64,000 nucleotides of DNA from Squalus acanthias. Lineage: Eukaryota. Numbering within the stretch: the first letter of the stretch is position 1; each line of letters begins with the position of its first letter. Position numbers and translations under genes: made by a program. Where the stretch lies: assembly GCA_030390025.1 (NCBI GenBank), contig CM059432.1:36334001-36398000 (forward strand), read 5' to 3'. Of this stretch, positions 1,410 to 64,000 are shown piece after piece. Under the pieces are notes generated by a model. That model did not search any database. It was not told where the DNA came from and saw only the letters and a program-made list of their open reading frames with translations.

Positions 1410-2345
1410 CATATTAGTCTTCCCAAAGTGTATCACTTCACACTTCTCTGCATTGAACTCCATCTGCTATGCTTCTGCCAATTTCACAATCCTGTCTGTC
1501 ATCCTGAAGTCTACAACTTTCCTCATCACTATCTACTATGCTACCAAGTTTCGTATCATTTTTTAAAAATTCAGTCAAGGGAAGCCAACATTTATTGCCC
1601 ATCCCTAATTGCCCTCGAGAAGGTGGTGGTGAGCCGCCTTATACAACTGATTTGCTTGCTAGGCCATTTCAGAGGGCAGTTAAGAGTCAACCACATTGCT
1701 GTGGCTCTGAAGTCACATATAGGCCAGACCGTGTAAGGGCAGCAGATTTCCTTTCCTAAAGGACATTAGTGAACCAGATGAGTTTTTACGACAATCCAGT
1801 AGTTTCATGGTTGCCATTACTGATACTAGCTTTTTATTGCAGATTTATTTAATTAACTGAATTTAAATTCCCCAGCTTGTGGTGAGATTTGAACTCATAT
1901 CTCCGGATCATTAGTCCATCTGCAAACTTTATAATGATGCTTCCTACACCTGAGTCTAGGTCGTTTATAAAAATTGAAAAGAGTAACGGACCCAAAACTG
2001 ACCCTTGGGGGAACACCACTGCAAACCACCTCCCAGTCTGAAAAACATCCATCCTCCACTTTGCTTCCAGTCAGTGAGCCAATTCTGTATCCATACTGCC
2101 ACTTCCCCCTTAATTCCATTGGTTGCCATCGTCTTAACAAGCCTCCTGTGTGCCACTTTGTCTAATGCCTTCTGAAAGTCCATATATACAACATCTACTG
2201 CACTACCTTGATCAACCTCTCTGTTACCTCATCAAGGAATTCAATCAACAATCAAGACACGATTTGCCTTTAACAAATTCATGCTTGCTCTTCTTGATTA
2301 ACCTATGCCTTTCCAAATGAAATTTATTTTGTCCCGGATAATTAT
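1410..2345 (-). mobile_element. Degraded CR1 LINE RT fragment, interrupted by a SINE at ~1560-1916
   Basis: Fragments [27 protein letters not shown]. Flanks rejoin as accaagtttcgtatcat|ctgcaaactt. Confidence 0.8.
1560..1916 (-). mobile_element. Meta-domain tRNA-derived SINE (5'-truncated) with the 3' tail of the 11507-14772 LINE family
   Basis: 1650-1916 matches 14455-14722; 1575-1640 matches the LINE 3' tail (gccagcatttattgcccatccctagttgcccttgagaagg); B box GTTCAAATC on the minus strand. Confidence 0.85.
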
Positions 2346-9611: not shown

Positions 9612-9992
9612 GTGGGTACAGTAGCGTAGTGGTTATGTTACTGGACTAGTAATCCAGAGCACGCGAGTTCAAATTCAAACATTGGAAGTTTGAGAATTTG
9701 AATTCCGAAATAAAAGCTGTAACAGACCATGAAGCTGTTGGATTGTCATAAAAACCCAACTGGTTCACTAATGTCCTTTAGTGAAGGAAATCTGCCGTCC
9801 TTACCCGGTCTGGCCTATATGTGACTCCAGTCTCTCACCGTTGTTGACTTCCCTCTGAAGTGACCTAACAAGTCACTCCGTTGTATCAAACCACTACAAT
9901 GCAGCAATTCAAGAAGGCCTACCACTACATATTTAAGGGCAATAAATGCGGCATTGCCAGCAACTCCCACATCCAGAGAATGATTTTTTAAA
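9612..9992 (+). mobile_element. Meta-domain tRNA-derived SINE, near full length
   Basis: A box TAGCGTAGTGG, B box GTTCAAAT, central aaaaacccaactggttcactaatgtcctttag...gtgactccag, LINE-type tail gcaataaatgc...cccacatcc. Confidence 0.85.
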
Positions 9993-10430: not shown

Positions 10431-11506
10431 TTCCTCTTTTTCCCACCCCCTCACCTGAACGTCAATTTGGGTCAGAGATTGGAGGCTCTCTGGTGACCCT
10501 GGCGTATATCCCACAATGAGTCGCTGCCTTCAGGAGAGGTGGGGAGATTTTTTTTAAATTGGAGAAGTTCCTTGAGATTTTCCTGCTTTTAATGTGCCAG
10601 TGACAGCACATTAATGCTGCACTTTGTACCTATTCTAGTGACCAGCTGTCGAGTTTCGAGAACACTTGATAGTTTCTGTATGTGATTGGAATATTAACTG
10701 CTGGGATGACTGCTCAGACTCCATGTATCTCATTATAAATATTGGGTTCATAGACTCGAAAGAGCATTTGTGCTACCAACTTTTTTGAAATGTCCAAGGT
10801 TTTGGACATATATTTAGGTCGAAGGCTGGTCTCGAGAGGAAAACATTTGAGGAATACAACGTGTAGGTGGAGTTGCGATCTGGTAGAGAGTGACATTTTG
10901 GGCTTAATGCTCTTTTCCTTGGGAGCATTCTGCTACCATACAAGATGTGGAGCATCCTGAGTTTCAAGAGTCTTATCCAAGTACTCCTTTTTAAAAGTAG
11001 TATTATACTTGTGTTTTTAATAACACAGTAACTGCTGGTGACCTCAGGGGAGTTGACATGAAACTTTTGTGAAGGAAGCTGAATGCGCAGAGCCTGTTGA
11101 AATGATGAGATAAGTAAAGCATGGTGCGTAAAGACTGATGAAATAATTCGGCTCCCTCACACTTGGCAAATATTCTAGGTTGGGTGCCATGACACCAAAA
11201 TTACAGTGTTACTGATTTTAACGTACGGACTGTTGAGCATTATATCTCCATCACTACAGATCATCCCCTAAATAACCAGTAAAAACCATTGCCGGACTTT
11301 GGCATCGGGGAAGGGTGCACATGTTAGAGATTTTTTCAGTTGTAAAATTCCTGAAATGATCAACTAAATAGAATAATGGATCCTGGTTGGATTAGACTGG
11401 TATCATCTGCATGTGTTTTTGCTCATTTTGAAAGCTGGATAGTGTATTTTTCTACTGCCCCGAGCATAGTACAAAACTGCTTCCTAATGGCAGTTGTTAA
11501 ATGCAG

Positions 11507-14500
11507 TTTTTTTTAATATTCGTTCATGGTATGTGGGCGTCGCTGGCAAGGCCAGCATTTATTGCCCATCCCTAGTTGCCCTTGAGAAGGTGGTGGTGAC
11601 GTCTTCTTGAACCGCTGCAGTCCGTGTGGCGAAGGTACTCCCACAGTGCTGTTAGGGAGGGAGTTCCAGGATTTTGATCCAGCGACGATGAAGGAACGGC
11701 GATATACTTCCGAGTCAGGATGGGGTGTGTGACTTGGAGGGGAACTTGGAGGTGGTGGCGTTCCCATGCGCCTGCTGCCCTTGTCCTTCTAGGTGGTAGA
11801 GGAGGTGCTGCCAAAGAAGCCTTGGCGAATTGCTGCAGTGCATCTATTGAAGATGGTACACACTGCAGCCACAGTACGCCTGTGGTGGAGGGAGTGAATG
11901 TTTAAGGTGGTTGATGGGGTGCCAATCAAGCGGGCTGCTTTGTCCTGGATGGTGTCGAGCTTCTTGAGTGTTGTTGGAGCTGCACTCATCCAGGCAAGTG
12001 GAGAGTATTCCATCACACTCCTTACTTGTGCCTTGTAGATGGTGGAAAGGCTTTGGGGAGTCAGAAGGTGAGACACTTGCTGCAGAATACCTAGCCTCTG
12101 ACCTGCTCTTGTTGCCACAGTGTTTATGTGGCTGGTCCAGTTAAGTTTCTGGTAAATGGTGACCCCCCAGGATGTTGATGGTGGTGGATTCGGCGATGGT
12201 AATGCCGTTGAATGTCATGGGGCAGTGGTTGGACTCTCACTTGTTGGAGATAGTCATTGCCTGGCACTTGTGTGGTGCAATTGTTACCTGCCACTTATCA
12301 GCCCAAGCCTGCAAGTCGTCCAGGTCTTGTTGCATGTGGGCATAGACTGCTTTATTATCTGAGGAGTTGTGAATGGCGCTGAACACTGCAGTCATCAGCG
12401 AACAGTCCCATTTCTGACCTTATGTTGGAGGGAAGGTCATTGATGAAGCAGCTGAAGATGGTTGGGCCTAGGACACTGCCCTTGAGGAGCTCCTGCAGCG
12501 ATGTCCTGGGGCTGAGATGATTGACCTTCAACCACCACAGCCATCTTCCTTTGTCCTAGGTATGACTCCAGCCAGTGGAGAGTTTTCCCCTGATTCCCAT
12601 TGACTTCAATTTTACTAGGGCTCCTTGATGCCACACTCGGTCAAATGCTGCCCTGATGTCAAGGGCAGTCACTCTCACCTCACCTCTGGAATTCAGCTCC
12701 TTTGTCCATGTTTAGACCAAGGCTGAAATGAAGCCTGGAGCCGAGTGGTCCTGACTGAACCCAAACTGGGCATCAGTGAGCAGGTTATTGGTGAGAAAGT
12801 GCTGCTTGATATCACTGTCGACGACACCTTCCATCACTTTGCTGATGATTGAGAGTAGACTAATGGGGCGGTAATTGGCCGGATTGAATTTGTCCTGCTT
12901 TTTGTGGACAGGACATACCTGGGCAGTTTTCCACATTGTCTGATAGATGCCAGTGTTGTAGCTGTACTGGAATAGCTTGGCTAGAGGTGCGGCTAGTTCT
13001 GGAGCGCAAGTCTTCAGCATGACAGCCGGGATATTGTCGGGGCCCATAGCCTTTGCTGTATCCAGTGCGCTCAACCGTTTCTTGATATCACGTGGAGTGA
13101 ATGGAATTGGCTGAAGACTGGCTTGTGTGATGGTGGGGACCTCGAGAGGAGGCCGATATGGATCATCTACTCAGCACTTCTGGCTGAAGATGGTTGCAAA
13201 TGCGTCAGCCTTGTCTTTTGCACTCACGTGCTGGGCTCCGCCATCATTGAGGTTGGGGCTATTCATGGAGCCTCCTCCTCCTGTTGTTTAATGGTCCACC
13301 ACCAATCACGACTGGATGTGGCAGGAATGCAGAGCTTTGATCTGATCCGTTGATTGTGGGATTGCTTAGCCCTGTCTATAGCATGCTGCTTCCGCTTTTT
13401 AACATGCATGTAGTCCTGTGTTGCAGCTTCCCCAGGTTGGCACCTAATTTTTAGGTACGCCTGGTGCTGCTCCTGGCATGCTCTTGTACACTCCTTATTG
13501 AACCAGGGTTGGTCCCCTGGCTTGATGGTAATGGTCGAGTGAGGGATATGCTGGGCCATGAGGTTACAGATTGTGATGGAATACAATTCTGCAGCTGATG
13601 GCCCACAGCGCCTCATGGATGCCCAGTTTTGAGCTGCTGAATTTGTCCCATTTAGCACGGTGGTAGTGCCACACAACACGATGGAGGGTGTCCTCAGTGT
13701 GAAGACGGGACTTCGTCTCCACAATGACTGACTGTGCGGTGGTCACTGCTGCCAATGCATCTGCGACAGGTAGATTGGTGAGGATGCAGGTCAAATAGGT
13801 TTTCCCCCTCGTGTTGGTTCTCTCACCACCTGTGGCAGGCCCAGACTGGCAGCTATGTCCTTAAGGACTCGGCCAACTTGGTCAGTAGTGGTGCTACCGA
13901 GCCACTCCTAGTGATGGACGTTGAAGTCCCCCACCCAGAGTACATTCTGTGCCCTTGCTACTCTCAGTGCTTCTTCCAAATGGTGTTCAACATGGAGGAG
14001 TACTGATTCATCAGCTGAGGGAGGGCGGTAAGTGGTAATCAGCAGGAGGTTTCCTTGTGTGTGTTTGACCTGAAGCCATGAGACTTCATGGGGTCAATGT
14101 TGAGGACTCCCAGGGTCGCCACTCCTTCACGACTCTATACCACTGCCGCCACCCCTGGTGGGTCTGTCCTGCCGGTGGGACAGGACATACCCAGGGATGG
14201 TGATGGTGTAGTTTGGGACATTGGCTGAAAGGTATGATTCTGTGAGTATGACTATGTCAGGCTGTTGCTTGACTAGTCTGTGGGACAGCTCTCCCAATTT
14301 TGGCACAAGTCCCCAGATGTTGGTGAGGAGGACTTTGCAGGGTCGGCTGGGTGTGCCGTTGTCGTGTCTGTAGCTGGTGCCGAGGTCGATGCCGGGTGGT
14401 CTGTCCATTTTTTTTTATTCTTACTGCTTTTCGTAGCTTTTTTTTTACCACTAGTGGCTTGCTAGGCTATTTCAGAGGGCAGTTAAGTGTTGACCACATT

Positions 14501-14772
14501 GCTTTGGGTCTGGAGTCACACATAGGCCAGACCAGGTAAGGACGGCAGATTTCTTTCCCTAAAGGACATTAGTGAACCAGATGGGTTTTTATGTCAATCC
14601 GATAGTTTCATGGTCACCATTACTGATACTAGCTTTTTATTCCAGATTTATTTAATTAACTGAATTTAAATTCCCCAGCTGTCGTGGTGGGATTTGATCT
14701 CGCGTCTCCGGATCATTAGTCCAGGCCTCTGGATTACTAGTCCAGTAACATAACCACTATGCTGCCGTTCCC
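11507..14772 (-). mobile_element. Full-length single-ORF non-LTR retrotransposon (APE + RT, CR1-group) with tRNA-derived SINE head and Meta domain as its 5' UTR; ORF disrupted
   Basis: EN N-terminus (LLTNIWGL..PDIVILTESYL..RQDRPTRGGG, 14127-14408), GDFN at ~13919-13931, RT motifs (GPDNIP, NYRPISLL, QFGF, FADD ~12390), C-terminal WNSLP, poly(A) at 11507-11514. TSD ttaaatgca (11497-11505) / ttaaacgca (14773-14781). Confidence 0.9.
14690..14764 (-). promoter_or_regulatory. Type-2 RNA polymerase III internal promoter (A and B boxes) at the 5' end of the LINE
   Basis: A box CAGCATAGTGG (14754-14764) and B box GATCAAATCC (14690-14699), each one mismatch from consensus; sister SINE copies carry TAGCGTAGTGG and GTTCAAAT. 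Confidence 0.7.
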
Positions 14773-15010
14773 TTAAACGCACTGCCCAATGTGATACTGA
14801 ACTATATAGACCAGGAAGATCCGAGTTGAATCCTCATTCTCTGCTGAGCTAGCTGATCTCAACTGAGGCAGTGGTACGGGAAATGCAATTGGCATCCACT
14901 CCCCTGGGCTAGGGAAAAGAAAAACAACCAGGGTACCCCTCCTGATTGCAACCAGTAACCATACATGTATTTGGACATTGGAAGAGGTAGGATTGAGTTC
15001 TGTGACTTTT
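14773..15010 (+). mobile_element. Ancient SINE body that served as the insertion target of the 11507-14772 LINE
   Basis: Same family as 10204-10430; its head appears to continue from ~11485-11505 on the other side of the LINE. Confidence 0.6.
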
Positions 15011-18510: not shown

Positions 18511-19114
18511 CATACAAGTATCAAAGTAGCATGCAGTATTGGAACTGTTGTTGACTCACCCAAATTAAAAAAAAACACTGGCAGCCTTCTAGCTGTTGTG
18601 GAAGTTTTCCAACCTTGGTCACACATCAATGCAATGATCTATTGAATGCTATTTAGTGTGAGTGGAGGCATCTTTTATCCACTGATGAATTAAAAGGATC
18701 TCCAGAGGATGGTCAGAATTTTATTTTTAACCCAACAGTATATGATGCTCCTTTCTGCTGAAATACATTTACAAGAAAGTAGGAATCAAAAGGCTGTCCG
18801 CCAAGTCTAATTGTGCATTCAGGGGCCCCCACAGGCCAGTTTCCCCTCGCTTAGATGTGATATCTTAGAGAAGCTATGAGGGAGATTGGAAACCAACTGG
18901 AGGACAGGTGAAGGAATGTAGTTGTCTTGTACTCAGGGCAAATCACTGAAGTTGAACAATTAAAAGCTGATTTTAGTGTAATAACGTAAGAAATAGGAGC
19001 AGGTATAGGTACTTTTTTTTTGCTTTACTAAAAGTGTTAAGCAATCTGAGTGCAAGGGTGCTGGCTTTAACTGGGGTAAATTAAAACTGAAATATCATGC
19101 AAGTTTTATAAGAT

Positions 19115-20490
19115 CAGGAGTGGGCCTGTTTGCTGATAATTCTAGTCGTTCAGTTCCATTCACGATGACTCCAATAATGAAGCAACCCATGCCAATCTAC
19201 AGTGGGGCCTGGACAACTCCCAGGCTTGGGCTGACAAGTGACAGGTAACATTCATGCCACTTGATTACCAGGCAATGACCATCTCCAACAAAAAAAACAA
19301 ATACATCCCCCTGACCTTTAACACCACCACCATCACTAAATCCCCTACCATCAACATCTTGAAGGTCACCACTGACCAGAAGCTTAACTGGACCAGTCAT
19401 ATCAACATAGTGGCTCACATCCTGACCCCTCAAATCCCATCTACCATCGAGAAGACCCAAGTAAGGATTGTGTTGAAATACTCACCAGTCACCACTCGCC
19501 TGGTTGGGTGCAGTTGCACCAAAACTGAAGAATCTTGACATTATCCAGAACACAAGTCCACCTGATCTGGGCATTTGACACTGAACTTAATATCTGCCTC
19601 CTCCACCTGTTGTGCACCATGGCTACAGTCTGTACTACAGGAAACTCTTTGGTATCCGGGACCGGCGTGGTGCCGGTTGATCGAAAGTTCCGGATAACAG
19701 AGAGCTATATCTACCGAGGCTATTTTTAACAAAGAAAAATAAAAAAATCAAGAAATGTGCAGTATACAGTATTTGGGTATTCACCTACAGAATGTTGTGT
19801 TAAATGGATGGTGGAAGATGCTTGATTAAGTACAGTACTGCCAGTTGAGAGTAATCCATAACTCTTTAATTACTTAACAGTAAGTGAGACTCCCGGCAGC
19901 GCGGGAGAATCAACTCCTGCTACTGCAGTGTTTCGGAATTCCGACTGCGCCAGGAGGCCGAGTAGTGGCACTTTTGAAAACTACCCCTACTGACTAAATC
20001 GGCGTTCGCGGACTCTGGATCGGCAACATTGCCGGTTATTTGAGAGGAGTTTTCGGAGTACTCGGCGTTCGCGGAGACTCGGACTGCGACTCGGCAACAT
20101 TGCCGGTTATTTGAGAGGAGTTTTCGGAGGATGATTTTTGCCGGTTAAGCGAGAATTCCGGATATTTGGGTGCCGGATAAACAAGAGTTTCCTGTATCTA
20201 AAGGATGCACTGCAGCAACTTACCAAGGTTATTCTCTCCCTGAGACCTCTACCACGGAGAAGAAAGCAGCAGTGTTGTGGGAATGGCATTGCCTCCAAGT
20301 CACGCACCATCTGCGACTTACTGCTGTTCCTTCACTGTCGCTGGCTCAATATCTAGAAACTCCCTACCGAACATCATGAGCAGAATCGGCACAAGGACTG
20401 TAGCAATTCGGAGAGAAGGCCTACCATGTTCTCGGCAGCCAGAGACGGACAGCAAATTTGGCATTGCCAGTGTTGCCCACATCCCATGTA
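19115..20490 (+). mobile_element. Degraded 3' copy of the 11507-14772 LINE family, interrupted by a MITE
   Basis: QAMTISNK..PLTFN..DQKLNWTSHIN peptide; tail ggcattgccagtgttgcccacatccc. Confidence 0.8.
19638..20194. mobile_element. Tc1/mariner (pogo/Tigger-like) MITE
   Basis: TIR CAGGAAACTCTT / AAGAGTTTCCTG; TA TSD at 19636-19637 and 20195-20196; internal ~60-bp direct duplication (~20000-20128). Confidence 0.9.
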
Positions 20491-22507: not shown

Positions 22508-23404
22508 GTTTTTTTTTTTAATTAATTTTTTTATTCGCTTATGGGATCTGGGCATTGCTGGCAAGGCCAGCATTTATTGCCCATCCCTAGTTGCCCTTGA
22601 GAAGATGGTGGTGAGCCACCTTCTTGAACCGCTGCAGTCCGTGTGGCGATGGTATTCCCATGGTGATGTTAGGTAGGGAGTTCCAGGATTTTGACCCAGC
22701 GACGATTAAGGATCGACGATATACTTCTAAGTCAGGATGGTGTGTGACTTGGAGGTGAACTTGGAGGTGGTGGTGTTCCCATGCACCTGCTGCCCTTGTC
22801 CTTCTAGTTGGAAGAGGTCACGGGTTTGGGAGGTGCTGCCGAAGAAGCCTTGGCGAGTTGCTGCATTACATCTTGTAGATGGTATACACTGCAGCCACGG
22901 TAAGCCGGTGGTGGAGTGTGTGAATGTTTAAGTTGGTGGATGGGGTGCCAATCAAGTGGGCTGCTTTGTCCTGGATGGTGTCGAGCTTCTTGAGTGTTGT
23001 TGGAGCTGCACTCATCCAGGCAAGTGGAGAGTATTCCATCACACTCCTTACTTGTGCCTTGTAGATGGTGGAAAGGCTTTGGGGAGTCAGGAGGTGAGAC
23101 ACTCGCTGCAGAATACCTAGCCTCTGACCTGCTCTTGTTGCCACAGTATTTATGTGGCTGGTCCAGTTAAGTTTCTGGTTAATGGTGACCCCCAGGATGT
23201 TGACAGTGGGGGATTCGGCGATGGTAATGCCATTGAATGTCAAGGGGAAGTGATTAGACTCTCGCTTGTTGGAGATAGTCATTGCCTGGCACTTCTGTGG
23301 CGTGAATGTTACCTGCCACTTTTCAGCCCAAGCCTGACCGTCGCCCAGGTCTTGTTGCATGTGGGCATGGACTGTTTCATTATCTGAGGAGTTGTGAATG
23401 GCGC
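22508..23404 (-). mobile_element. 5'-truncated copy of the 11507-14772 LINE family
   Basis: Collinear with 11507-12380; poly(A) tail at 22508-22533. Confidence 0.92.
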
Positions 23405-23967: not shown

Positions 23968-24835
23968 ACAACGCCTCAGATAATGAAGCAGTCCATGCCT
24001 GCATGCAGCAAGACCTGGACAACATTCAGGCTTGGGCTGGTAAGTGGCAAGTAACATTCGTGCCACACAAATGCCAGACAATGACCTTCTCCGACAAGAG
24101 AGAGTCTAACCACTGCCCCATGACATTCAACGGCATTACCATCGTCTAGTCCCCCACCATCAACATCCTGGGAGTCACCATTGACCAGAAACTTAACCGG
24201 ACCAGCCGCATAAATACTGTGGCTACAAGAGCGGGTCAGAGGCTAGGTATTCTGTGGCGAGTACCTCGCCTCCCTGACTCTCCAAAGCTTTTCTACCATC
24301 TACAAGGCACAAGTAAGAGTGTGATGGAATACTCTACACTTGCCTGGATGAGTGCAGCTCAAACAACTCAAGAAGTTCGACACCATCCAGGGCAAAGCAG
24401 CCTGCTTGATTGGCACCCCATCCACCACCTTAAACATTCACTCCCTCCCCCACCGGCGCATCGTGGCTACAGTGTGTACCATCTACACAATACACTGCAG
24501 CAACTCGCCAAGGCTTCTTCGACAGCATCTCTTACACCCGTGACCTCTACCACCTAGAAGGACAAGGCCAGCAGGCGCATGGGAACACCATCACCTGCAA
24601 GTTCCCCTCCAAGTCACACACTATCTTGACTTGGAAATATATTGCAGTTCCTTCATTGTCGCTGGGTCAAAATCCTGGAACTCCTCCTTAACAGCACTGT
24701 TGGGAGTACCTTCACCACTCGGACTGCAGTGGTTCAAGAAGGCGGCTCACCACCACCTTCTCTAGGGTAATTAGGGATGGGGCAGTAAGTGCTGGCCTGG
24801 CCAGCGACGCCCACATCCCATGAACGAATAAAAGA
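23968..24835 (+). mobile_element. 5'-truncated copy of the 11507-14772 LINE family
   Basis: QQDLDNIQAWA..WQVTF, ATRAGQRLGIL; tail cccacatcccatgaacgaataaaag. Confidence 0.92.
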
Positions 24836-25701: not shown

Positions 25702-26088
25702 GGTTTTTAAAATTCATTTTCAGGGTGTGGACATCGCTGGCAATGCTGGAATTTATTGCCCATTCCTACTTTCCTTGTGAAGGTGATGATGCAATTGAGT
25801 GTCTTGCTAGGCCACTTCAAAGAGCAGTTAAGAATCAACCACATTGGTGTGGGACTGGAGTCACATATAGGCCAGACAGGTAAGAAAAGCAGGCTTCCTT
25901 CCCTAAAGGAATTTAATGAACCATTTGGGTTTTTAACGACAATTCGACAGCTTCATGGTCACTTTTACTGATATCAGCTTTTTATTTCCGTATTTTTCCA
26001 AAAATTCTCAAACTGCCATGGTGGTATTTGAACTAGAGTTCTCTGAATTATTAGTCCGGGCCTCTGGATTCCTAGTCCAATAACATGC
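25702..26088 (-). mobile_element. Meta-domain SINE
   Basis: Collinear with 1560-1916 and 14455-14760. Confidence 0.8.
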
Positions 26089-34169: not shown

Positions 34170-34445
34170 GAGTTCGCTTGCTCAGCATCCCATTCACTAG
34201 CCTGAACATCATCTCCTTCCACTACCAGCATACTGTGGCTGCAGTGTGTAGCTACAGAAGCACTGCAGAAACTCAGTAAGACTTCTGTGGCAGCATCTCC
34301 CAAACCTTCAACCTCCACCACTTAGAAGGACAAGGGCAGCAGCTGCAGGTGAATACCATCACCTCCGAGTTCCCCTCCAAGTCATACACCACCCTGACTG
34401 AACATATATTGCCATTCTTTCATCGTTGCTGGGTCAAAATCCTGA
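34170..34445 (+). mobile_element. Degraded 3' fragment of the 11507-14772 LINE family
   Basis: ccaccacttagaaggacaagggcagcag...ttcccctccaagtcatacacc...gctgggtcaaaatcctg. Confidence 0.7.
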
Positions 34446-34570
34446 CACTCGAGAGTCATCTGTCAGGCACAGGATTCGAAAACCTGGGTGGGGAAATTTT
34501 AAAATTAAGGGTGACAAAAATGTTGGGGGCTTTAGCCAATTAAAAATTTTTTTTTTAAAGAGGGTGTTGG

Positions 34571-62285: not shown

Positions 62286-64000
62286 TTTTTTTAAAATATT
62301 CGTTCATGGGATATGGGCGTTGCTGGCAAGGCCAGCATCTATTGCCTATCCCTAGTTGCCCTTGAGAAGGTGGTGGTGAGCTGCCTTCTTGAACCGCTAC
62401 AGTCCGTGTGGCGAAGGTACTCCCACAGTGCTGTTGGGGAGGGAGTTCCAGGATTTTGACCCAGCGATGATGAAGGAACGGCGATATACTTCCAAGTCAG
62501 GATGGTGTGCGACTTGGAGGGGTACTTGGAGGTGGTGGTGTTCCCATGCGCCTGCTGCCCTTGTCCTTCTAGGTGGAAGAGTTCATGGGTTAGGGAGGTG
62601 CTGCCGAAGAAGCCTTGGCGAGTTGCTGCAGTGCATCTTGTAGATTGTACACACTGCAGCCATGGTATGCCTGTGGTGGAGGGAGTGATTTTTTTTTTAA
62701 GGTGGTGGATGGGGTGCCAATCAAGCTGGCTGCTTTGTCCTGGATGGTGTCGAGCTTCTTGTGTTGTTCGAGCTGCACTTATCCAGGCAAGTGGAGAGTA
62801 TTCCATCACACTCTTTACTTCTGCCTTGTAGATGGTGGAAAGGCTTTGGTGAGTCAGGAGGTGAGACACTCGCCACAGAATACCCAGCCTCTGACCTGCT
62901 CTTGTTGCCACAGTATTTCTGTGGCTGGTCCAGTTAAGTTTCTGGTCATTGGTGACCCCCCAGGATATTGACGGTGGGGGATTCGGTGATGGTAATGCCG
63001 TTGAATGTCATGGGGCGGTGGTTAGACGCTCGCTTGTTGGAGATAGTCATTGCCTGGCACTTGTGTGGCACGAATGTTTCCTGCCACTTATCAGCCCAAG
63101 CCTGAATGTCGTCCAGGTCTTGCTGCATGCGGGCATGGACTGCTTCATTATCTGAGGAGTTGCGAATGGAACTGAACACTGTGCAGTCATCAGCGAACAT
63201 CCCCACTTCTGATGTTATGATGGAAGGAAGGTCTTTGATGAAGCAGCTGAAGATGGTTGGGCCGAGGACACTGCCCTGAGGAACTCCTGCAGCGATGTTC
63301 TGGGGCTGTGATGATTGACCTCCAATCACCACAACCATCTTCCTTTGTGCTAGGTACGACTCCAACAAGTGGAGAGTTTTCCCCCCCGATTCCCATTGAC
63401 TTCGGTTTTACTAGTTCTCCTTGATTCCACACTCGGTCATATGCTGTCTTGATGTTGAGGGCATTCACTCTGACCTCACTTCTGGAATTCAGCTCTTTTG
63501 TCCGTGTTTGGACCAAGGCTGTAATGAGGTCTGGAGCCGAGTGGTCCTGACGGAACCCAAACTGGGCATCCGTGACCAGGTTATTGGTGAGTAAGTGCCA
63601 CTTGATGGAAGGTGTCGTCGACACCTTCCATCACTTTGCTGATGATTGAGAGTAGGCTGATGGGGTGGTAAATGGCTGGATTGGATTTGTCCTGCTTTTT
63701 GTGGACAGGACATACCTGGCCAGTTTTCCACATTGTCAGATAGATGCCAGTGTTATAACTGTACTGGAACAGCTTGGCTAGAGGCGTAGCTAGTTCTGGA
63801 GTACAAGTCTTCAGCACGACAGCCGGGATGTTGCCGGGGCCCACAGCCTTTGCTGTATCCAGTGCGCTCAGCCGTTTCTTGATATCACGTGGAGTGAATC
63901 GAATTGGCTGAAGACTAGCTTCTGTGGTGGTGGGGATCTCAGGAGAAGGCCGATATGGATCATCCACTCGGCATTTCTGGCTGAAGATGGTTGCAAATGC
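62286..64000 (-). mobile_element. Copy of the 11507-14772 LINE family (RT + 3' end), continuing beyond the window
   Basis: Collinear with 11507-13203; [19 protein letters not shown]. Confidence 0.93.

What the first reader, a model, noticed from the sequence alone, without database searches (positions are those of the whole stretch)
11497..14781. Candidate Pol III-driven autonomous LINE: tRNA/SINE head fused directly to an EN-RT ORF and mobilised as one unit
Seen (minus strand): tRNA-like head with A and B boxes (14690-14772), Meta-type SINE domain (~14455-14690), short A-rich linker, then an APE endonuclease + RT ORF with no room for an ORF1, a 3' tail and poly(A). A single 9-bp TSD (ttaaatgca / ttaaacgca, differing by a CpG-type transition) brackets head and LINE together, and the flanks rejoin into one ancient SINE. 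So this is not simply a SINE inserted next to a LINE. Established: LINEs normally use Pol II promoters, and SINEs borrow LINE 3' tails. Inference: the family may be an autonomous retrotransposon that uses a tRNA-derived Pol III promoter. I cannot tell whether it has already been catalogued.
Basis: partly seen in the sequence, partly recalled or inferred. Interest (0 to 1): 0.85.

Follow-up and report, generated by a model that had tools for sequence, protein, structure and literature searches.

The report
Shark LINE with built-in tRNA head
This is a worn copy of a very abundant shark jumping gene that encodes its own copying enzyme yet starts with the tRNA-like promoter piece normally seen only on small non-coding SINEs, and it likely uses RNA polymerase III, an enzyme not known to drive such protein-coding elements.

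Summary
The fusion is real and family-wide. The window copy (11506-14772, minus strand) is a dead member of the elasmobranch Zenon LINE family (CR1 group, one 973-codon ORF, no ORF1).

Copies picked by the ORF alone run into the same tRNA-like head or stop short; none has another 5' UTR. Head variants are linked to ORF variants up to 3.2 kb away, and the ORF was under purifying selection. Published Zenon consensuses of four sharks and a ray start with this head; the paper does not mention it.

Pol III use is inferred, not shown. For it: A and B boxes, 5' ends piling up at the head's first base, no TTTT in 3.3 kb, and no AUG before the endonuclease.

Corrections: the body is not a Meta domain, TSDs are rare in the family, and the window's ATG is private. 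A free SINE is this LINE minus its middle. This scan noted the same family twice before in this genome and once in another.

The parts
11506..14772 (-). Full-length but dead copy of the tRNA-headed Zenon LINE (4.3% non-CpG divergence from the family majority)
14685..14772 (-). tRNA-derived head with two hairpins between the A and B boxes; the family 5' end is 14772
14754..14764 (-). A box (CAGCATAGTGG here; most copies TAGC[A/G]TAGTGG)
14690..14701 (-). B box (GAGATCAAATCC here; most copies GAGTTCAAATCC)
14446..14684 (-). Non-coding body shared with the free SINE; not a Meta domain; holds several upstream AUGs
14334..14443 (-). A-rich linker and Arg-rich N-terminal codons; the family reading frame opens here after a TAA, with no conserved in-frame AUG
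14406..14408 (-). ATG private to this copy, not a family start codon
11572..14443 (-). Single ORF of the family (973 codons: APE endonuclease about 14333-13740, RT about 12900-12150; stop TAG 11574-11572), broken in this copy
11506..11612 (-). 3' end shared with the SINE: last codons, a 3' UTR of about 65 nt with AATAAA (11563-11558) and a predicted stem-loop, and an A8 tail
11497..11505 (+). Target-site duplication, copy at the element's 3' end
14773..14781 (+). Target-site duplication, copy at the element's 5' end (one transition)
14782..14950 (+). Older repeat (SINE-like by eye) into which the element inserted; about 15 nt of it lie on the other side, near 11491-11505

Best explanation
This is a dead copy of an autonomous Zenon-type LINE of sharks and rays whose native 5' end is a tRNA-derived head, and source elements were likely transcribed from that head's A and B boxes by RNA polymerase III.

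Shown: head, body, one endonuclease-RT ORF and tail moved as one 3.3-kb unit, and the ORF was under purifying selection in source elements.

Inferred: TFIIIC would bind the boxes and start Pol III at the first base. The sense strand has no oligo-T stop, so the polymerase would run through to a T-run in the flank or at the tail. The AATAAA may allow polyadenylation. The uncapped RNA would be translated without an in-frame AUG, by a near-cognate start or re-initiation after upstream mini-ORFs; the codon is unresolved. The protein would copy its own RNA by target-primed reverse transcription, which regenerates the internal promoter in each full-length copy. The 430-nt SINE is likely an internal-deletion derivative riding on the same enzyme.
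For: One unit:
- 29 of 29 loci cross the junction.
- Of 29 copies picked by the ORF 5' end alone, 25 enter the SINE-like part and 4 stop at the junction in unrelated DNA.
- Of 20 copies picked with a protein only 40% identical, 13 enter it (5 start at base 1) and 7 are truncated.
- 28 of 40 copies are head-to-tail.
- Three head variants are linked to 14, 22 and 12 of 55 downstream variants at p<0.01.

Autonomy: variants shared by 5 or more copies have N:S 26:36 and no stops; private variants have 1019:351 and 52 stops.

Promoter:
- A box matches in 36 of 54 and B box in 57 of 67 LINE-linked heads.
- Consensuses of five elasmobranchs start with the head, three with canonical GGTTCGAATCC; hagfish and coelacanth Zenons do not (first 400 nt, read by eye).

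T-runs:
- No TTTT in 3316 majority columns.
- 16 observed against 120 expected in 84.8 kb of copies.
- Canonical CR1 pieces in the same genome have 55 in 12.3 kb.
- TTT ratio is 0.34-0.50 in 5 copies, below all 79 other LINE ORFs (minimum 0.57, median 1.09).

Translation: the first in-frame Met is residue 287, after the endonuclease. The linker keeps frame in 56 of 57 copies.
Against: - No transcript, cap or polymerase data.
- The family is one ancestral sequence, so the TTTT test is modest: P about 0.05 against a codon-preserving shuffle, 0.12 for the ORF alone.
- The TTT:TTC bias (0.24) equals CAT:CAC, so it is not Phe-specific.
- A close invertebrate-type relative is also low in TTTT (1 against 3.7, L282), and 1 of 79 outgroups has none. 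Most outgroups are far more T-rich.
- No shared variant creates TTTT, but only about 1.2 were expected.
- The Pol III transcriptome is described as short non-coding RNA (PMC10498592 abstract), and no start codon could be pinned down.
- No intact copy was found: the longest stop-free frame among 131 RT hits was 821 aa, and the best full frames carry 1-2 stops.
Confidence: 0.57

Rival explanations
1. The head is a fixed part of the autonomous LINE, but Pol II makes the coding RNA, either from a Pol II promoter within head and body or by read-through from host genes. The tRNA-like hairpins serve translation or RNA stability, and the Pol III boxes matter mainly for the SINE.
For: LINEs are taken to be Pol II transcripts (PMC5786205 section 23). 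The T-run signal is only P about 0.05 under the codon-preserving null, and a relative not shown to carry a head is also low in TTTT. SINE and LINE heads are interleaved on the tree, so exchange could keep the boxes intact. AATAAA plus an A tail suits Pol II.
Against: 5' ends pile up at the first base of the head, with the A box starting at base 9 as in tRNA genes and SINEs. Boxes are kept in five lineages. Head variants stay linked to ORF variants, so the head evolved on the LINE. A capped mRNA would not be expected to lack an AUG for the endonuclease.
Confidence: 0.33
2. The tRNA-like head is a processing signal. RNase P or a similar activity cuts the element RNA out of longer host transcripts, giving a precise uncapped 5' end, much as 5' ribozymes do for R2 and RTE elements.
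For: It explains the sharp 5' end and the missing AUG without Pol III. Conserved hairpins lie between the boxes. 5' self-cleaving ribozymes are known in six LINE clades.
Against: No acceptor stem is evident: the Rfam match covers model positions 7-64 only, and I saw none in the folds. It does not predict T-run avoidance.
Confidence: 0.08
3. One-off or repeated template-switch chimeras of a SINE and an ordinary LINE that has its own 5' UTR elsewhere.
For: A free SINE with the same head exists at similar age.
Against: The junction is the same in nearly all LINE-type copies. No alternative 5' UTR was seen in 49 ORF-selected copies. Head and ORF variants are linked. The structure is the same in five species.
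Confidence: 0.02

Closest known systems
Elasmobranch Zenon LINEs (SquAca_Zenon-1/2/3, CarCar_, RhiTyp_, ScyCan_, HypSab_Zenon-1; PMC13343379 and its bioRxiv preprint)
   Same: CR1 group, no ORF1, poly(A) tail, about 3.3 kb. The first 400 nt of SquAca_Zenon-1 are near-identical to this family by eye, and all five species' consensuses begin with the head.
   Different: The paper's main text has no occurrence of tRNA, promoter or polymerase. The head, the missing AUG, the T-run avoidance and the derived SINE were not found in the passages I searched.
tRNA-derived SINEs (SINE2) and their LINE partners, e.g. SacSINE1/CmiSINE with L2-2_CM, MetaSINEs, bivalve SINEs with CR1-Zenon tails
   Same: tRNA head with A and B boxes, a body and a LINE-derived tail. 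Zenon LINEs are known SINE partners.
   Different: Those SINEs are non-coding and share only the 3' tail with the LINE. Here the LINE carries head and body too. The body is not Meta. By eye it does not resemble the Deu alignment shown; CORE and V were not tested.
Bipartite / internally deleted LINE derivatives (Persaeus from lepidopteran Zenon, PMC6740152; model in PMC5786205)
   Same: A short element made of the LINE's 5' and 3' ends.
   Different: Persaeus has no tRNA homology or Pol III promoter, and the model adds the tRNA head after the deletion. Here the full-length parent already has the head, so a deletion alone would yield a SINE.
R2 and other LINEs with non-Pol II or uncapped RNA (R2 co-transcription and ribozymes; lack of an AUG in R2 recalled)
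   Same: Single ORF, and an RNA that is likely uncapped and translated without a standard start.
   Different: R2 borrows the host rRNA promoter by site-specific insertion. This element carries the putative promoter and is dispersed.

Membership tests
Zenon (CR1 group) | Single APE+RT ORF, no ORF1 | tested here: met
   973-codon ORF from base 330, no other long ORF; Pfam Exo_endo_phos and RVT_1
Zenon (CR1 group) | Poly(A) tail rather than a microsatellite tail | tested here: met
   A-rich tails on the 3' ends listed
Zenon (CR1 group) | RT groups apart from canonical CR1, with invertebrate single-ORF elements | tested here: met
   In a 59-member clade (FastTree support 0.965) with lancelet and unnamed proteins of about 950 aa, away from this genome's CR1; 28% identity to canonical CR1. 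No named Zenon RT was in the tree.
Zenon (CR1 group) | Identity to published elasmobranch Zenon consensus | tested here: met
   Motif hits and by-eye match over the first 400 nt; the rest of each cell was cut
MetaSINE | 66-bp Meta domain | tested here: not met
   Consensus; three motifs match no better than shuffles
Pol III type 2 transcription unit | Internal A and B boxes near the 5' end | tested here: met
   the spacing is longer than in a standard tRNA because of an extra hairpin
Pol III type 2 transcription unit | No internal oligo-T terminator (threshold of 4 T in vertebrates is recalled; oligo-dT termination) | tested here: met
   0 TTTT in 3316 majority columns, P about 0.05; no T3VT2/T2VT3 in 5 of 5 copies
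Pol III type 2 transcription unit | Uncapped RNA made by Pol III, with TFIIIC/POLR3 occupancy | not testable with these tools
   Only assembled contigs were available
Autonomous retrotransposon | ORF under purifying selection in source elements that carry the head | tested here: met
   Shared N:S 26:36 against private 1019:351; head-ORF linkage
Autonomous retrotransposon | Intact, currently active copy | tested here: inconclusive
   None among 131 + 47 scored hits, but only the best of over 500,000 first-look candidates were scored

The most novel reading that the evidence does not exclude
An autonomous LINE that carries its own Pol III promoter: a 3.3-kb uncapped Pol III RNA translated without an AUG into a 970-aa retrotransposase. 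It has been kept since the common ancestor of sharks and rays, ranks among their abundant repeats, and gives rise to SINEs by simple internal deletion.
Probability: 0.55. Interest if true: 0.88.

Novelty: new variant of a known kind. Interest (0 to 1): 0.72.

Why it matters
The usual split is that LINEs are Pol II mRNAs and SINEs are Pol III non-coding RNAs that share only a tail. A successful LINE with a built-in tRNA promoter would break that split. It would be a natural case of a long protein-coding Pol III transcript with non-AUG translation, and it offers a one-step route from LINE to SINE. The claim is easy to test: a B-box mutant or an inserted T5 in a reporter, and 5'-end chemistry in shark tissue. 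Even without Pol III, the shared 5' end matters for repeat annotation in elasmobranchs, because SINE and LINE 5' ends are the same sequence.

Tried and rejected
- Meta domain: rejected.
- TSDs as a family-wide proof: rejected; they are rare.
- The window's ATG as the start: rejected as private.
- A second AUG at majority base 358 with a frameshift: it is in another frame, 26 of 57 copies lack it, and I saw no slippery site by eye.
- ACG as a universal start: present in 34 of 57 copies here, but the other four species have ACA or AAA there.
- Two copies sharing upstream DNA (L083, L094) lie in a duplicated block and are not an alternative 5' UTR.
- Direction SINE-to-LINE or LINE-to-SINE by tree: unresolved star.
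- tRNA heads on invertebrate relatives: none evident in the few contigs with upstream DNA. ARAGORN at a relaxed score gave only noise.
The viral-contig scan found nothing.
- Expression: no RNA holder on record was listed, and the contigs laid show neither starts nor levels. Loose ends at 14453 in four coded organisms fit either the LINE linker or a SINE variant.
- My early note that the ORF runs to the A tail was wrong; it came from one copy. The family stop is at 11574-11572.
- Literature: ten searches found no description of a tRNA-headed autonomous LINE. Repbase, Dfam and most subscription papers were not searchable. Two wanted papers were not held, the supplement of PMC5499810 was unavailable, and bioRxiv supplements are closed.
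Full report
OBSERVATION. On the minus strand the element spans 14772-11506: a tRNA-like head, about 240 nt of non-coding body, an A-rich linker, a broken endonuclease-RT frame and an A8 tail. The 9-bp TSD lies exactly at both ends. With the element removed, the flanks align across the junction in 4 of 11 paralogs of an older repeat; the other 7 alignments begin beyond the junction. So this copy went in as one piece. It is dead, with 21 indels and 4.3% non-CpG divergence from the family majority.

IS THE FUSION GENERAL? Yes. A head-plus-ORF query gave 40 scored hits at 90-100%, and all 29 other loci examined cross the junction. That set is biased, so I selected copies three other ways. By ORF 5' end only: of 29, 6 reach the head start, 19 are 5'-truncated within the SINE-like part and 4 stop at the junction in unrelated DNA. 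By a protein only 40% identical: of 20, 13 enter the SINE-like part, 5 of them starting at base 1, and 7 are truncated at bases 328-444. By head only: 26 of 29 run into the ORF and 3 go straight to the tail (this set partly overlaps). No alternative 5' UTR appeared. Of 40 copies extended, 28 are head-to-tail. The RT query had 523,663 first-look candidates, which is not a copy number but shows abundance.

ONE EVOLVING UNIT. In 55 aligned copies, three non-CpG head variants are linked at p<0.01 to 14, 22 and 12 of 55 downstream variants, out to the tail. Variants shared by 5 or more copies show N:S 26:36 and no stops, against 1019:351 and 52 stops for private ones. Head-bearing source elements therefore kept a working protein.

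IDENTITY. Majority columns give 3316 nt and one 973-codon ORF with endonuclease and RT domains. The RT falls among single-ORF proteins of about 950 aa from a lancelet and unnamed sources, apart from this genome's canonical CR1. A piece at 86% identity sits in a protein model of another shark. PMC13343379 (passages and supplement rows read) and its preprint (passages) describe ORF1-less, poly(A)-tailed Zenon LINEs in five elasmobranchs. Its supplementary consensuses, visible for the first 400 nt only, show this same head in four sharks and a ray, three with the canonical B box GGTTCGAATCC; by eye none of the five has TTTT in that stretch. The hagfish and coelacanth Zenons start differently and carry T-runs. 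The main text never uses tRNA, promoter or polymerase. Contigs from four coded organisms end their match at 14772 with unrelated flanks, the same boundary.

CORRECTIONS. The body is not Meta. TSDs are uncommon: 5 of 28 against 16 of 84 controls, and 2 of 21 against 1.7%. The window's ATG is private. In the family the first in-frame Met is residue 287, after the endonuclease, and 7 of the 14 near-intact natural copies printed show the same late Met (241-244 residues past the endonuclease start); the others have earlier Mets at varying positions.

THE SINE. A free SINE of about 430 nt joins bases 1-327 to the last ~106 nt of the LINE, with several junction variants. One older variant keeps part of the LINE linker and joins the tail further upstream (L058). 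SINE and LINE heads are nearly the same sequence, 5.5% and 4.1% from the majority, and interleave on an unresolved tree. Multiple breakpoints favour internal deletion from the headed LINE, but direction is not proven.

POL III. Type 2 promoters use internal A and B boxes and stop at oligo-dT (PMC10498592, passages). Alu bodies lack internal terminators and their RNAs are uncapped (PMC6724667, passages). A 3.3-kb Pol III unit must therefore avoid T-runs. The family has no TTTT and only 7 TTT in its majority columns. Copies show 16 TTTT against 120 expected. In one search the 12 internal sites seen among 37 copies were each in a single copy, and 4 copies had one at the tail. Thirteen canonical CR1 pieces of the same genome have 55 in 12.3 kb against about 31 expected (two pieces are one young subfamily). 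The TTT ratio of five copies is below that of all 79 other LINE ORFs. Against this: the copies are not independent, the codon-preserving null gives only P about 0.05, the Phe bias is not unique, and relative L282 is also low. The missing AUG fits an uncapped RNA but does not prove one. The linker keeps frame in 56 of 57 copies, though its repeat unit is itself 3 nt. No expression data could be had.

VERDICT. The tRNA-headed autonomous LINE is shown. Pol III transcription is my best explanation at about 0.57; Pol II with a retained head is the main rival at about 0.33. The family is known, and ten searches of open literature found no description of its head (see Tried and rejected); Repbase and Dfam were not checked. 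Other papers seen: PMC5499810 (parts 1-2 of 6), PMC4824008 (passages, supplement part 1), PMC5786205 (passages, section 23), PMC7245038 (passages, supplement hits), PMC6740152, PMC11481361 and bioRxiv 10.1101/443036 (passages). Three earlier scan notes report the same family. They are not independent evidence; one gave me the published version of the preprint.

Noticed in passing
window 1584-1918 (-) and 25704-26086 (-): Two free copies of the SINE that shares head, body and tail with the LINE (88% and 77% to the window copy's head).
   Followed up: partly
window 62287-64000, 22526-23404, 23968-24830: Three further pieces of the same LINE family at 87-90%. The pair at 22.5-24.8 kb is inverted, tails pointing outward.
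   Followed up: no
window 19108-19552, 34175-34450, 9614-9830: Much older relatives (67-74%) of the ORF and of the head, suggesting earlier waves of the family.
   Followed up: no
3' ends of family copies: 11 of 59 ends have a T4-T10 run directly before the A tail. It could be a trace of oligo-U termination followed by polyadenylation, but a roughly constant T+A length suggests decay of the tail.
   Followed up: partly
head, window 14735-14705: Two hairpins lie between the boxes. The second has a different stem sequence in other elasmobranchs yet still pairs (by eye). The layout recalls tRNA-Leu/Ser with a long variable arm (recalled, untested).
   Followed up: partly
L055:1-2800 and L061:2200-4650: A young canonical CR1 subfamily (the two copies are near-identical, with an open RT frame) inserted into older Zenon copies; probably recently active.
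   Followed up: partly
P0036: A shark aldo-keto reductase gene model contains about 210 residues of this LINE's ORF in frame, likely a mis-annotation or an exonisation.
   Followed up: no
L282-L345: Many bacterial MAG contigs in the genome collection are eukaryotic LINEs, i.e. host contamination.
   Followed up: no
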